In this document: piece after piece, positions 1-47,818 of the stretch | Layout: each line of letters starts with the position of its first letter | How positions within the stretch are numbered: the stretch's first letter is position 1 | NCBI GenBank assembly: GCA_038087875.1 | Contig: CM075990.1 | Location: 682,001-746,000 of the forward strand | Reading direction: 5' to 3' | Source of the DNA: Malacoraja senta | Lineage: Eukaryota | DNA length: 64,000 nucleotides | Notes under the pieces: model-generated | What the model was told of the DNA's origin: nothing | Seen by the model: the letters and a program-made list of their open reading frames with translations, nothing else | Database searches by the model: none | Position numbers and translations under genes: made by a program

Positions 1-360
1 GAAATTCCATTTCAAGCAGGGTGCAAGGCAACCAAATTCAAGTGCAGTTTCCTACCATTTCAAGCAGGGTGTAAGGCCACCAAATTCAAGTGCAGTTTCT
101 TACCACTTCAAGCAGGGTGCAAGGCCACCGAATTCAATTGCAGTTTCATACCACTTCAAGCAGGGTGCAAGGCCACCGAATGCTAGTGCTGTTTCATGCC
201 ATTTCAAGCAGGGTGCAAGGCCACCAAATTCAAGTGCAGTTTCATACCACTTCAAGCAGGGTGCAAGACAACCAAATTGAAGTGCAGTTTCATACCATTT
301 CAAGCAGGGTGCAAGGCCACCACATTCCAATGCAGTTTCATACCATTTCAAGCAGGGTGA
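1..360. repeat. 48-bp minisatellite, ~7.5 copies (ttcaagcagggtgcaaggccaccaaattcaagtgcagtttcataccat), truncated by window start
   Basis: TTCAAGCAGG recurs at 11, 59, 107, 155, 203, 251, 299, 347 (period 48); this explains the 16-aa repeat ORFs. Confidence 0.95.
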
Positions 361-765
361 AACCACCATAAAACCACTATAAAATAACCACACAAAACAC
401 CACATAAACACCACACTCACAGTTCAGTAGACATTCAGTGTGTTCAGTTGATTCACTGCTCAGACAGAGTCGTGACCTCTCTCTCCTCCATCTTGCAGAA
501 ACTGAGCCACACCCACACTTACGGGTTTTATAATCCCTCCCCCTCCAACTGGAAGGGGCGTGGCCGTCATGGCGTGATTGACAGGAGAGAGATTCTCAAC
601 ATGTTTTAAACACTAATAACACTTTTAATTTTCATTAATGGGAAGAATCCTCTGCACCTTATGAGTGGCGAGGAACTGAGTAAGAAGGCCTAAAATCACA
701 GCCGTAAGTGGTAGCGTTTTATCTAAAATCAATATTCAGTGCAAACAGGAAGTTGTCAAGTTTCC
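361..765 (+). mobile_element. Distal part of a non-autonomous Helentron/HINE-like repeat
   Basis: 620-762 (...aaaatcacagccgtaag...aaacaggaagttgtcaag) resembles 30239-30370 (...aaaaatcgtagcgctagg...gacaggaagtggtcaag); block ~413-510 is repeated at ~1376-1470. Confidence 0.5.
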
Positions 766-7024: not shown

Positions 7025-7805
7025 CATAATGTAACACCTCATGTATCTGCCCACTCACCCAGCCTGTCCAAGTCACCCTGCATTCTCATAGCATCCTCCT
7101 CACAGTTCACTGCCACCCAGCTTTGTGTCATCTGCAAATTTCCTCATGTTATTTGTAATCCCTTCATCAAAGTCATTAATATTTATCATAAATAGCTGCG
7201 GTCCCAGCACCGAGCCTTGTGGTACCCCACTAGTTACTGCCTGCCATTCTGAAAGGGACCCTTAATCCCTACTCTGTGTTTCCTGTCTGCCAACCAATTT
7301 TCTATCCATGTCAGCACTCTACCCCCAATACCATGTGCCCTAATTTTGCCCACTAATCTCCTATGTGGGACCTTATCAAATGCTTTCTGAAAGTCCAGGT
7401 ACACTACACCTACTGGCTCTCCCTTGTCCATTTTTCCTAGTTACATCCTCAAAAAATTCCAGAAGATTAGTCAAGCATGATTTCCCCTTCGTAAATCCAT
7501 GCTGACTCTGACCGATGCTATTACTGCTATCCAAATGTGCGGCTATTTCATCTTTTATGATTGACTCCAGCATCTTCTCCACCATCAATGTCAGGCTAAC
7601 TGGTCTATAATTCCGTTTTCTCTCTCCCGCCTTTCTTATAAAGTGGGATAAAATTAGCTACCCTCCAATTCACAGGAACTGATCCTGAATCTATAGAACA
7701 TTGGAAAATGATCACCAATGCGTCCACGATTTTTTAGACCCACTGCCTTAAGTATCCTGGGATGCAGACCATCATGCCCTGGGGATTTATCAGCCTTCAG
7801 TCCCA
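7025..7805 (-). mobile_element. CR1-like LINE RT fragment
   Basis: QHGFTKGKSCLTNLLEFFEDVT; VVYLDFQKAFDKVPH; FADD region. Confidence 0.9.
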
Positions 7806-8172
7806 TCTTCTTCTTCGAGTCCGTTGCAATCTCAGATGTCGTTCTGCCAGTATCTGGCGCAGGTCACAGCTGGTCGAGTCGGTTCAGCCAGGTCCTGGGG
7901 GCTGCACTGGGGGACGTCGTCACACTCCAGTAGGTGGGACATTGTCTGTACTGCTCCACAGCTGCATGTGTCTTCTGCCTGGTAGTTCCATGCTTTCATA
8001 AGTGCTTTACACCTCCCCTGCTCAACTCGTAATCTGTTGAGGGTCTTCCAGGTTGGCCATGGGAGGTCCTGCCCGCTGGCGAGGCATTCAGTCGGAGTGA
8101 TTCCTCTCTCCATCCAGTCGTGGGCTCGTGTGTTGAGCTGGTTCCATTCATCTTTCCAGATGCACCAGACAC
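7806..8172 (-). mobile_element. 3' end of an Ingi/Vingi-like LINE (CCHC C-terminus, (GAA)n tail)
   Basis: WKTLNRLR..GRC..W..CSCG..QTMSHLLEC motif, very short 3' UTR, then gaagaagaaga. Confidence 0.7.
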
Positions 8173-8743
8173 ATGGAGGCAGGGAATATAGGACAATTTG
8201 TCACTTCTTTAGAAAGACACATAATACTCACATTATATATAGTACTGATTTCTCAAAAAAAGATGTGTGGTCACCCTAATCTAGTTAAACCTCAATTATT
8301 TCTCAAATACACACATACTAATCATCACAGGTTATTAAGTTTTAAATAAAGCTATTTGAAATAATTTAACTTTTGCATATATTTCTTAAGAATAGTTTAC
8401 CTCATATACTCTGGCCCAGCTCGCATTGAATCATACACGTCATTGTTCTTACATTAACATCCCTCCCTTTTTTTTTAAATTTTTCTTGCCATTCAAAGCA
8501 TTATAGATCTGCTTCATTCTTCTAAGTCTTTATGCCCTCTAAACCTGTTCATCACATTTCAAACTTTCTGCAGTTCTGATGAACTGGGCGGTGGCGCAGC
8601 GGTAGAGTTGCTGCCTCACAGTGCCAGAGACCCGGGTTCAATCCTGACTATGGGTGCTCTCTGTACGGAGTCTGTAAATTCTTCCCGTGACCTGCGTAGC
8701 TTTTCTCCAGGATCTCCGGTTTCCTCCCACACTCCAAAGACGT

Positions 8744-8951
8744 CTTCTTCTTCTTGCGTTTGAGGCAGCAGAAGTTTACAGCAGGATGATATGCCATCCG
8801 CTTCGACATCCGTAGGTGCCCGCCCTAAAAAGGGCGCATGCCCCGGGTTGACGCCAAGATGCGGTGCTGCTGCCGTCTCTGTTTGTTGTCATTTGCCTGA
8901 CTGAGGTCAGTTGACAGGGCTCACCAAGGGGAGGTCGACAACATGAGCCCC
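8744..8951 (-). mobile_element. Short non-autonomous retroposon with 5' HDV-like ribozyme and (GAA)n tail
   Basis: 13-bp TSD actccaaagacgt (8731-8743 and 8952-8964); 3' tail gaagaagaag; no tRNA head and no recognisable coding motif. Confidence 0.88.
8884..8951 (-). ncRNA. HDV-like self-cleaving ribozyme (predicted)
   Basis: Minus strand GGGGCTC-A-TGTTGTCG-ACC-TCCCCTT-GGT-GAGCCCT-GTCAA-CTGAC-CTCA-GTCAG-GCAAA-TGACAACA: P1 7 bp starting with G.U, P2 8 bp, P3 3 bp, 7-nt L3 starting UCC, P4 hairpin, C in J4/2. Confidence 0.82.
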
Positions 8952-10419
8952 ACTCCAAAGACGTAAAGGTTTGTAGATTATTTGGCTTGGAATAATTGTA
9001 AATTGTCCCGAGTGTGTGTAGGATAGTGTTAGTGTACAGGGGATCGCTGGTCGGCACAGACTCAGTGGGCCGAAGGGCCTGATTCTGCGCTGTATCTCTA
9101 AATTAATCTCAAAGTAAGCTAAGCCAAAAAACGTTATTATTCCGAAACATTGACATGGCTTTCTTGTCCTCAGACATCACCTGAATTTCTGAATATGCAC
9201 GGTATTTCCATCTTTATTTCCAATTTTTAAAGTAATTTTCTTTTTGTGTAAATAAGTTACAATCTTGCCAGGAGCTTCACAGGAGTCTCTGCTCTGGAAT
9301 TTAAATATGAAAGCATTGTTGATAAGTATGATCCGACCTTCTTATTTGATCAGGAAGAATTCACAGGCAGGACCACATCATAGAAACCAGCTGAATCGAT
9401 TAACAGAGTTAAACTAAAAGTTTGCTCATAAGGTCATAAGGTAATAATGGCACAAGTGATAGGAGCAGAATTAGGCAATCCGGCCCATCAAATCTACTCT
9501 GCAATTCAATCGTGGCTGATCTATCTCTCCCTCCTAACCCCATTCTCCTGCCTTCTCCCCATAACCCCTGACACCCGTACTAATCAAGAATCTATCTATC
9601 TAGACCTGAAAAATATCTATTGAACCATTGAATAGTCCTTCAAAGTTAAAATATATTTCCTTCTTGTAGAATAGCTCTGAAGAAAATTAGGAAGCAATCA
9701 TTAAATGAAGTAACACAATAAAACTATCTTAGTTGTCTAAGCATTGGTTAAGAGATCAGGAGAATAGAAAGCCATCAAAAATGATGAGAGAAAGATTTTT
9801 CTGAGATGATGTACTTTTCCAACATTAATAATCAAGCATTATGTCCAATAGATGGCTATTATGGTAATTGAACATTTATTTTTAAATAACTAAAATTAAA
9901 TCTTTGTGGCAGTTGTTGGCATTGGAATCCATTTTGAAAGTTGATATACAAAGAAATATCTTTCTGGTTTGTGTAGGAAGGAACTGCAGATGCTGGTTTA
10001 CACCAAAGATAGAAACAAATTGCTGGAGTAACTCAGCGGGACAGGCAGCATCTCTGGAGATAAGGGAAGGGTGACAGGGTGATGTTTCGGGTCAAGAGAG
10101 TAATAATAACTGTAATAATACTTAATGCAAAAAAAACAAATAGGTATCAATCCGTACAAATCTCTGATGTTGGGGGAAGAAGTCACCTTGTTAGGATGTT
10201 CTGGAAGATTGTAAATATATGTAAGCATTCTCTTCTCATGATATTCTGTGAAGGACGTGGGTTCAGCAGCATCTCTGGTGAAAATGGATAGGTGACGTTT
10301 CGAGTCAGGATGCTTCATCAGATTGATTGTAGTGGCTGGGGGGCGGTGGGCGGGGGGCGGGGAACTGGAAGCAATTGACAAACTCGGACAAATCGGGGCC
10401 TGTAACAAATGATCTCAGT

Positions 10420-39378: not shown

Positions 39379-40019
39379 TTTTGAGCAGTTTTGGGCCCCA
39401 TATCTGAGGAAGGATGTGCTGGTGTTGGAGAGGATCCAGAGAAGGTTTACGAGGATGATCCCAGCAATGATTGGATCAACATATGATAAGCGTTTGACGG
39501 CACAGAGCCTGTACTCGCTGGGATTTAGAAGGTTGAGGGGGGACCTCATTGAAACTGCCTGGAAGGCCTGTATAGAGTGGATGTGGAGAGGATGTTTCCA
39601 CTAGTGGGAGAGTCTACGACCAGAGGCCATAACCTCAGAATAAAAGGGCGTACCTTTATAAAGGAGATGAGGAGGAATTTCTTTAGTTGAAGGATGGTGA
39701 ATGTGGAATTAATTGCCGTAGAAGGCTGTGGCGGCCAAGTCCATGGATATTTTTAAGGTGAGAGATAGATTCTTGTCAGGGTTTATAGGGAGAAGGCAGG
39801 TGAATGGGGTTGATAGGGAAAAGTAGATCAGCCATGATTGAATGGCGAAGTAGACTTGATGAGCCAAATGGCCTAATTCTGCTCCTATAACTTATGAACT
39901 TTGGGAAATGGTTATTATTTTGTTATTAACACATTTAGAAAATATCTTCAGATTTACCTTAAAGCTGTCCACCAATGATATTTTGTTTCAATATAATTAA
40001 CCTTGTGGGAAAAGAAATG

Positions 40020-40356
40020 CAGTGAAAACCATCACCACGTAAAGATGCCGACCCCAACCCAGAAACAGCTACCACCTGGTCACAGGTGTGACTGGAAGAC
40101 ATGCAAGTCCCTCAATAGGCTTCGTACCGGGATGGGCCGATGCAAGACCAATATGAACAAATGGGGCTATGCAGATGTGGCAGACACAGAATGTGAATGT
40201 GGAACATCTGTACAATCCATGCCACACCTACTAAGATGCCCACTTCTTGGCGAACAATGCTGCCTGGAAGATCTAGTGGTGGCAAATGAAAAGGCTGTCC
40301 ACTGTGCAAGAGCCTGGCCGAACATTTGAAACATAGATGATGGACAGAAAGAAGAA
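40020..40356 (+). mobile_element. 3' end of an Ingi/Vingi-like LINE (second family)
   Basis: KSLNRLRTGMGRCKTNMNKWG..CECG..QSMPHLLRC; short UTR ending gaaagaagaa. Confidence 0.7.
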
Positions 40357-47618: not shown

Positions 47619-47818
47619 NNNNNNNNNNNNNNNNNNNNNNNNNNNNNNNNNNNNNNNNNNNNNNNNNNNNNNNNNNNNNNNNNNNNNNNNNNNNNNNNNN
47701 NNNNNNNNNNNNNNNNNNNNNNNNNNNNNNNNNNNNNNNNNNNNNNNNNNNNNNNNNNNNNNNNNNNNNNNNNNNNNNNNNNNNNNNNNNNNNNNNNNNN
47801 NNNNNNNNNNNNNNNNNN
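47619..47818. other. Assembly gap (200 N)
   Basis: Run of n. Confidence 1.

What the first reader, a model, noticed from the sequence alone, without database searches (positions are those of the whole stretch)
8744..8951. Ribozyme-headed mini-retroposon: HDV-like ribozyme, ~130-nt body, (GAA)n tail, 13-bp TSD
Seen: a ~208-bp insertion splits a V-SINE and is flanked by actccaaagacgt on both sides. On the minus strand its first 68 nt fold as a nested double pseudoknot: P1 GGGGCUC/GAGCCCU with a first G.U pair, P2 UGUUGUCG/UGACAACA, P3 ACC/GGU, L3 UCCCCUU, P4 CUGAC/GUCAG, J4/2 GCAAA. The element's 5' end coincides with G1, the expected cleavage site (G1 could alternatively be counted as a 14th TSD base). 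There is no tRNA head and no recognisable coding motif. Known: HDV-like ribozymes process the 5' ends of R2, RTE and Ingi/L1Tc retrotransposons and trypanosomatid SIDER elements. Inference: this is a promoter-independent SINE-like family that cuts itself out of read-through transcripts and borrows a LINE RT, possibly undescribed in cartilaginous fish. Caveat: J1/4 reads GU rather than GG, so P1.1 would have only one pair.
Basis: partly seen in the sequence, partly recalled or inferred. Interest (0 to 1): 0.9.

Follow-up and report, generated by a model that had tools for sequence, protein, structure and literature searches.

The report
Ribozyme-headed shrunken Vingi-type retrotransposon
This 208-base insertion is a copy of a shrunken jumping gene that kept only the two ends of a larger retrotransposon found in the same genome, including a predicted self-cutting RNA at its start, which makes it a new example of a known kind of parasite-on-a-parasite.

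Summary
In detail: a 208-nt minus-strand insertion with a 13-bp TSD splits a SINE, and its first 68 nt fit an HDV-like fold. It belongs to a family with at least 578 heads in this genome. Copies start at G1 and carry TSDs and (AAG)n tails. It is not a SINE with a novel body. I found the partner, a decayed 3.28-kb single-ORF LINE (APE, RT, C-terminal zinc knuckle, no RNase H; Vingi-like) with the same head and tail. The element is that LINE's first 85 nt, about 30 codons of its ORF start without the ATG, and its last 32 nt, so 'no coding motif' is wrong. Across four related head types, 10 of 18 pairs covary. This copy has lost G25 and is probably impaired. Cleavage and promoter independence are untested. 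The kind is known (NARTc/RIME, R2 SIDE, Vingi-N). Side finding: by eye, a published crocodilian Vingi 5' end matches the mammalian CPEB3 ribozyme consensus at 38 of 40 nt.

The parts
8952..8964 (.). Target-site duplication, copy next to the element's 5' end (13 bp)
   Evidence: single in 7 of 7 other SINE copies printed
8884..8951 (-). HDV-like (CPEB3-type) ribozyme head, 68 nt. G1=8951; P1 8951-8945/8922-8916; P2 8943-8936/8891-8884; P3 8935-8933/8925-8923; L3 8932-8926 (U20=8932; position 25=8927 is U here, G in the family); J1/4 GU 8915-8914; P4 8910-8906/8901-8897; J4/2 8896-8892 with the predicted catalytic C57=8895
   Evidence: same head on the LINE L102 (81 of 85 nt identical over element nt 1-85)
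8867..8883 (-). Remnant of the LINE 5' UTR. Holds the 5' arm of a possible 5'-3' duplex. The first deletion (48 nt against L102, removing the ATG) follows it
8776..8866 (-). About 30 codons of the LINE ORF start, up to the first strand of the APE endonuclease (reads GVNPGHAPFLGRAPTDVEADGI over 8855-8790, then a 2-nt insertion in this copy). Includes a small GC hairpin over the PFLGR codons
   Evidence: 78 of 91 columns identical to L102; tblastn to 1008-1015 aa relatives P0002-P0004, 59-65% over 21-23 aa
8756..8775 (-). LINE 3' UTR (last base of the stop codon plus 19 nt), joined after a 3,022-nt deletion
   Evidence: 28 of 29 nt identical to the L102 3' end; junction
8744..8755 (-). (AAG)4 tail
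8731..8743 (.). Target-site duplication, copy next to the tail
8586..9110 (+). Host tRNA-headed SINE split by the insertion (about 8586-8743 and 8952-about 9110). The V-SINE/HE1 label is recalled and was not tested
   Evidence: both halves match many other window copies with a 13-nt overlap

Best explanation
The element is a bipartite non-autonomous LINE (a short internally deleted element) derived from a Vingi-like non-LTR retrotransposon. SHOWN: a 3.28-kb single-ORF LINE in the same genome shares its 5' head and 3' end; two internal deletions made the short form; longer intermediate subfamilies exist; copies are dispersed with TSDs and (AAG)n tails and mostly start at G1; the head's helices covary across related LINEs. 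INFERRED: a master copy was transcribed within a longer RNA and the ribozyme cut it 5' of G1. The LINE's APE/RT protein, supplied in trans, bound the shared 3' end and copied it by target-primed reverse transcription. Being short, most copies came out full length. The family looks inactive now, and this copy's ribozyme is probably crippled by G25U.
For: Partner LINE L102 = G000:C4:22346250-22349640(-), found by crossing and read. P0002 aligns to it in 7 segments over aa 11-1012 at 58-75%. Pfam gives Exo_endo_phos, RVT_1 and a weak zf-RVT, with no RNase H in 6 L102 pieces or 3 full-length relatives. Family size: 912 candidates, 40 scored; 578 matches of the first 22 nt at up to 2 mismatches, control 0. 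63 of 71 distinct insertions start at nt 1-3; in the set picked by the tail alone, 22 of 30 loci do. TSD abutting G1 in 41 of 62 copies, against mean 0.62 (max 3) in 200 mispaired controls. Intermediates L096, L097, L099, L100, L101 keep the ATG, and 4 of these 5 (not L101) read on through the LQLNAEG codons; L055 keeps the ORF's last codons. Covariation: 10 of 18 pairs change on both sides, 95.4% of cells paired against 41.5-49.7% when slid. Descriptor heads lie upstream of the ORF in 12 of 64 metagenome relatives against 0 of 121 control stretches. Two more head types in this genome pair 7 of 7 in P1.
Against: No cleavage assay and no raw RNA reads: all four runs laid were contigs, and their RNA status is a guess. 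Only 33 of 59 full copies pass my strict descriptor, and the L102 head does not. All Rfam hits are below gathering score. Within the family there is decay but no covariation. The covariation count rests on 10 rows I chose, which stand for only four lineages, with the family B row misaligned in P2. No TSD was found in 21 of 62 copies. The 5'-end counts are biased towards full-length copies. The clade name rests on architecture, not on a tree with named references.
Confidence: 0.85

Rival explanations
1. Same origin, but the 5' end is set mainly by an internal promoter starting at G1. The pseudoknot serves as a dual promoter/ribozyme or only protects the 5' end, so the element is not promoter-independent.
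For: Pr77 of L1Tc/NARTc is both an internal promoter and a ribozyme (PMC3383444 and PMC1874656, starts of abstracts). Some well-folded trypanosome SIDER heads did not cleave (PMC4035085 passages). No RNA evidence here.
Against: C57, U20, C22, U26 and G37 are invariant across the 10 heads aligned, as expected for catalysis rather than for a DNA promoter. Helices covary.
Confidence: 0.2
2. The partner is an RTE-clade (or other single-ORF) LINE, making this a Bov-A/RTESINE-like bipartite element.
For: RTE elements also have one ORF, no RNase H and short-repeat tails (recalled), and they are a main source of bipartite elements (PMC5786205). No named reference proteins were available.
Against: The C-terminal C-x-CG...QT..HI..C knuckle and the LQLNxEG and GVPQGSVL motifs are I/Ingi-group features (recalled). 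The head is of the same type as the Vingi-2_Gav 5' end printed in the PMC5786205 supplement, and unlike the RTE ends printed there. One relative is annotated as X-element-like.
Confidence: 0.06
3. A true SINE-like family with its own non-coding body that independently acquired a ribozyme.
For: Short, non-coding, multi-copy, no intact ORF in the short form.
Against: Every part of the element aligns colinearly to one LINE, and the body encodes the LINE's N-terminus.
Confidence: 0.02
4. This particular copy is a working, possibly exapted, ribozyme.
For: All helices and C57 are intact in this copy.
Against: G25 is U. G25A abolished visible cleavage in a related ribozyme (PMC13635239 passages). With 12 substitutions this copy ties for the most diverged of 59, and it sits inside a SINE.
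Confidence: 0.07

Closest known systems
NARTc / RIME / SIDER (L1Tc-ingi clade, trypanosomatids)
   Same: Short non-autonomous derivative that keeps the LINE's HDV-like 5' head and 3' end; NARTco and several SIDER heads cleave in vitro (PMC4035085 passages).
   Different: Animal host; the partner lacks RNase H; (AAG)n tail; keeps ORF-start codons.
Non-autonomous derivatives of Vingi-1_EE, and Vingi-derived SINE parts
   Same: Internal deletion derivatives of a Vingi LINE (stated in PMC5786205 main text, and PMC4494074 passages).
   Different: [quoted passage not shown] The original Vingi paper was not held.
R2 SIDE and R2/R1 SIDE (Drosophila)
   Same: 5' ribozyme joined to a LINE 3' end, mobilised in trans (PMC3414825 abstract).
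   Different: Those are rDNA site-specific and R2/R1 driven; this one is dispersed and APE-type.
Mammalian CPEB3 ribozyme (Rfam RF00622)
   Same: Same fold class, same numbering of U20/G25/C57, GU in J1/4. Relative head L144 scores 32.6 bits (cut-off 35).
   Different: This element's own head has different helix sequences and scores better against RF02682. CPEB3 is a single-copy intronic element (PMC13635239 passages say intronic and conserved in mammals; single-copy is recalled).

Membership tests
HDV-like ribozyme | Nested double pseudoknot: 7-bp P1 with first G.U, P2, 3-bp P3, P4 | tested here: met
HDV-like ribozyme | Catalytic C in J4/2 followed by R-A-A | tested here: met
   C57 invariant in 10 aligned heads; changed in 2 of 59 family copies
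HDV-like ribozyme | U20.G25 wobble in L3 | tested here: inconclusive
   Met by the family (G25 in 57 of 59); not met by the window copy or by L102 (U25)
HDV-like ribozyme | P1.1 (one or two pairs) | tested here: met
   C22-G37 plus C21.U38; GG with CC in head type C, U-A in type E; one-pair P1.1 is known
HDV-like ribozyme | Self-cleavage 5' of G1 | not testable with these tools
   no raw RNA reads; 5' ends at G1 are indirect
Rfam RF02682 / RF00622 | Score at or above the gathering cut-off | tested here: not met
   30.2 against 44 bits; relatives 25-34 bits
Bipartite non-autonomous LINE (SIDE) | 5' and 3' ends shared with an autonomous LINE of the same genome | tested here: met
   L102: 81 of 85 and 28 of 29 nt
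Bipartite non-autonomous LINE (SIDE) | Internal deletion removing the ORF, same junction in dispersed copies | tested here: met
Bipartite non-autonomous LINE (SIDE) | Own TSDs and repeat tail (independent retroposition) | tested here: met
   41 of 62 against control mean 0.62
Vingi clade (partner LINE) | Single ORF with APE endonuclease and RT | tested here: met
   definition from PMC13708176 passages
Vingi clade (partner LINE) | No RNase H domain (unlike Ingi) | tested here: met
   none at E<=0.1 in P0002, P0003, P0011 or 6 L102 pieces; two stop-containing L102 pieces were left out of that scan
Vingi clade (partner LINE) | RT phylogeny sister to Ingi | not testable with these tools
   no named Vingi, Ingi or RTE reference was returned
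SINE in the strict sense | Pol III head from tRNA, 5S or 7SL | tested here: not met
   the head is the LINE's ribozyme; no such Rfam hit
RTE-derived bipartite elements | Partner in the RTE clade | tested here: inconclusive
   motifs argue against (recalled); no tree

The most novel reading that the evidence does not exclude
A CPEB3-type HDV ribozyme is the standard, so far unreported 5' end of Vingi-clade LINEs. This genome's deletion series defines their minimal cis-signals: ribozyme, a short 5'-3' UTR duplex, and ACGC(AAG)n. The mammalian CPEB3 ribozyme, said to have no non-mammalian outgroup, is an exapted Vingi head.
Probability: 0.4. Interest if true: 0.72.

Novelty: new member of a known kind. 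Interest (0 to 1): 0.45.

Why it matters
The kind is known, but here the whole series sits in one animal genome: the parent LINE, intermediate deletions and at least two successful 135-206-nt derivatives with different ribozyme sequences. That is a natural deletion map of what a Vingi protein needs in trans, which bears on Vingi-based gene-insertion platforms (PMC13708176 passages). It also extends HDV-like ribozymes to Vingi-like elements with cross-family covariation. It points to a testable origin for the CPEB3 ribozyme, which PMC8233481 (passage) says has not been found outside mammals.

Tried and rejected
(1) The loose end at element nt 167 in two contigs looked like the LINE 3' end. It proved to be a 39-nt 5'-truncated copy inside another repeat (L091); the other 4 candidates fetched had no element. 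(2) Head and tail DNA searches alone (60 loci) showed no LINE. (3) MFE folding is uninformative for a pseudoknot (z -1.26). (4) One search had P2 off by one column, my slip; one search is the intended count. (5) No named Vingi/Ingi protein came, so no tree was built. (6) No full-length stop-free ORF among the 45 loci scored with P0002; that search was a stricter first look and is a floor. (8) The 5'-3' duplex is not general. Longest perfect complement and shuffles reaching it of 5000: family B 11 bp (0), L100 10 bp (6), L102 9 bp (14), window copy 8 bp (50), L005 7 bp (237), family E 4 and 6 bp (3838, 344) (windows chosen after seeing the data). The 3' ends of the metagenome relatives were not obtainable. 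(9) Four of the eight stretches (L199, L200, L202 and the 3' end for family F) gave no element end. (10) The scan's earlier findings held nothing. (11) Literature searches listed no paper on this family, none describing a ribozyme in Vingi, and none linking CPEB3 to Vingi. In one search one review held both terms; 12 of its 22 passages were shown, and the ribozyme passages among them concern R2. Ruminski 2011 and Kojima 2011 were not held, and Repbase and Dfam cannot be searched here, so prior annotation is not excluded.

Full report
OBSERVATION. Both halves of the host SINE match other window copies with a 13-nt overlap, and the 7 copies printed have the site once. My strict HDV descriptor hits the window only at 8951, 0 times in 100 window shuffles and in 0 of 20,000 head shuffles. 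The descriptor was written knowing the fold, so this shows non-randomness, not function. Rfam has no hit at gathering score and a sub-threshold HDV hit on exactly this head.

FAMILY. The window lies in a 1.94-Gb genome, G000. The element gives 912 candidates, its head 737 and its tail 654; only 40 were scored each time. The first 22 nt match 578 places at up to 2 mismatches, control 0. The 90 loci fetched are 71 distinct insertions: 58 align from nt 1, 5 from nt 2-3 and 8 later. Among the 30 loci chosen by the tail alone, 22 start at nt 1-3. None shares sequence upstream of G1, and loose ends there in two other organisms' DNA contigs agree only 0.38-0.46. The 59 full copies differ by 3.3% from the majority base, a low-biased sample. 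The window copy has 12 substitutions, including G25U, G58A and C61U in the head. Coded organisms A-F hold the family.

PARTNER. Loose ends continued the element's frame at nt 174 into LNAEGL and added an in-frame ATG after nt 85. Pattern searches for these led to longer subfamilies of about 250-340 nt (L096-L101). L055 is a different deletion that keeps the ORF's last codons. Crossing with a search for that 3' piece gave two hits 3 kb apart on C4. That locus, L102, is a 3,279-nt LINE starting with the same head and ending with the same 3' UTR and tail. The short element is LINE nt 1-85, then nt 134-223, then the last 32 nt; 48 nt with the ATG and 3,022 nt of ORF are gone. The window copy is identical to L102 at 81 of 85, 78 of 91 and 28 of 29 positions over these parts. 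L102 is decayed. An intact 1,013-aa relative, P0002, covers it in 7 segments. Pfam shows APE-type endonuclease, RT and a weak C-terminal zinc motif, and no RNase H. Single ORF, APE and no RNase H match the description of Vingi in PMC13708176 (passages). The C-terminal knuckle and RT motifs argue against RTE (recalled). No tree with named references was possible. None of the 45 loci scored with P0002 shows a full stop-free ORF, so the family looks inactive in this assembly, within the limits of that search.

IS THE FOLD SELECTED? Within the family there is only decay, so I looked across families. (a) A second short family, B (135 nt, 2,698 candidates), was found nested in L049. The 12 copies fetched show a different 56-nt HDV-like head and an ACGC(AAG)n tail. 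(b) Of 80 metagenome loci encoding related endonucleases, 64 had enough upstream DNA. Twelve of these pass a looser descriptor about 130-155 nt before the first aligned residue, against 0 of 121 control stretches. BLAST with the heads finds homologues in 55 of the 80; many of these are replicate assemblies of one locus. (c) A sequence-only alignment of 10 chosen heads of four types keeps U20, C22, U26, G37 and C57 invariant. P1, P2 and P3 give 95.4% paired cells and 10 of 18 pairs with changes on both sides, against 41.5-49.7% when slid. P4 was left out because its register shifts between types, and the B row is misaligned in P2. (d) Two further Vingi-like LINE families in G000 start with other heads that pair 7 of 7 in P1 and fully in P2; one has a U-A in place of C-G in P1.1. 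Sequence varies while the fold and active-site bases are kept, at the exact 5' end.

MECHANISM. Shown: derivation by internal deletion, independent dispersal with TSDs, 5' ends at G1, covarying fold. Inferred from R2, L1Tc and SIDE biology (PMC6765202 and PMC4035085 passages, PMC3414825 abstract): cleavage frees the RNA from a longer transcript, and the LINE protein acts in trans on the shared 3' end. Not shown: cleavage, expression, absence of a promoter. A one-pair P1.1 is compatible with activity. Loss of G25 is harmful in a related ribozyme, so the window copy is probably impaired while typical copies such as L005 are the ones to assay. A possible extra signal is a duplex between the bases just after P2 and those just before ACGC(AAG)n. 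It is 9-11 bp in L102, L100 and family B, with different sequences in A and B. It is weaker in the short form and absent in family E. I leave it as a lead.

COMPARISON AND NOVELTY. [quoted passage not shown] This is therefore a new member of a known kind. My searches listed no description of this family or of a ribozyme in Vingi, but two key papers were not held and Repbase and Dfam are not searchable. The host clade was not tested; HE1 V-SINEs are listed for sharks and rays (PMC3747384 passage). bioRxiv supplements were closed and were not consulted.

SIDE FINDING. Comparing two tool outputs by eye, Vingi-2_Gav nt 2-41 as printed in the PMC5786205 supplement (passages) equal the Rfam CPEB3 consensus at 38 of 40 positions in the same numbering. 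The 14 nt from the end of P4 through J4/2 and P2 are identical, and SINE2-1_AMi also keeps the CPEB3 P4 stem. [quoted passage not shown] A Vingi origin of the CPEB3 ribozyme is therefore likely. It was not computed here and may be known outside the library.

VERDICT. Real, well explained, known in kind. Interest 0.45, raised above routine by the complete deletion series, cross-family covariation and the CPEB3 lead.

Noticed in passing
L049:1283-1419 (-); L103-L114; L070: Family B: a 135-nt element with a compact 56-nt HDV-like head (L3 UUCACGU, almost no P4), an 11-bp 5'-3' inverted pair and an ACGC(AAG)n tail; 2,698 candidates. One copy sits inside a family A copy with its own TSD. Its partner LINE was not sought.
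   Followed up: partly
PMC5786205 supplement against Rfam RF00622 consensus: The crocodilian Vingi-2_Gav 5' end matches the mammalian CPEB3 ribozyme consensus at 38 of 40 nt by eye, which suggests CPEB3's ribozyme is a Vingi relic.
   Followed up: partly
window 7805-8175 (-) and about 39993-40352 (+): 5'-truncated 3' ends of two other Vingi-like LINEs with GAA tails. The first has an 11-nt stretch around its stop codon identical to part of family B's head; unexplained.
   Followed up: partly
L195-L198 (G000 C4 and C12), L201 (C5004): Two more Vingi-like LINE families with distinct HDV-like heads. Family E has TSDs on both copies and a U-A P1.1; its 3' UTR repeats the 7-nt P2 5' strand.
   Followed up: partly
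L115-L126, L159-L162: Related LINEs in metagenome contigs carry a head 79% identical to family A with compensatory P2 changes. The closest intact proteins are about 70% identical over the endonuclease, and one relative's cluster has sea urchin members. Horizontal transfer is possible but untested.
   Followed up: partly
L091 (G000:C1:183199.6k): A 39-nt 5'-truncated copy inside another repeat has a similar upstream junction in contigs of organisms A and F. This may be a shared orthologous insertion older than their split.
   Followed up: partly
many small contigs of G000, also C12:7057217-7066649: Near-identical decayed copies of the partner LINE recur on dozens of small contigs, and one motif recurs six times at about 1.88-kb spacing on C12. 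This suggests amplification within a larger or tandem repeat.
   Followed up: no
window 8927 and L102: The window copy and the LINE copy L102 share the G25U change seen in no other of 59 copies; their other differences are not shared, so this is probably coincidence.
   Followed up: partly
window about 8824-8839; metagenome loci: A small GC hairpin over the PF(L/S)GR codons near the ORF start has a look-alike in 21 of 80 metagenome loci by a loose pattern with no control. It is partly deleted in L097 and L101.
   Followed up: partly
L097, L099, L101: Longer subfamilies carry 2-4 tandem copies of a roughly 33-nt unit holding the ATG codon.
   Followed up: no
window 1-370 and 759-1344; 47619-47818: Tandem repeats near the window start, and a 200-nt break in the self-alignment at 47619-47818, probably an N gap or masked stretch.
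   Followed up: no
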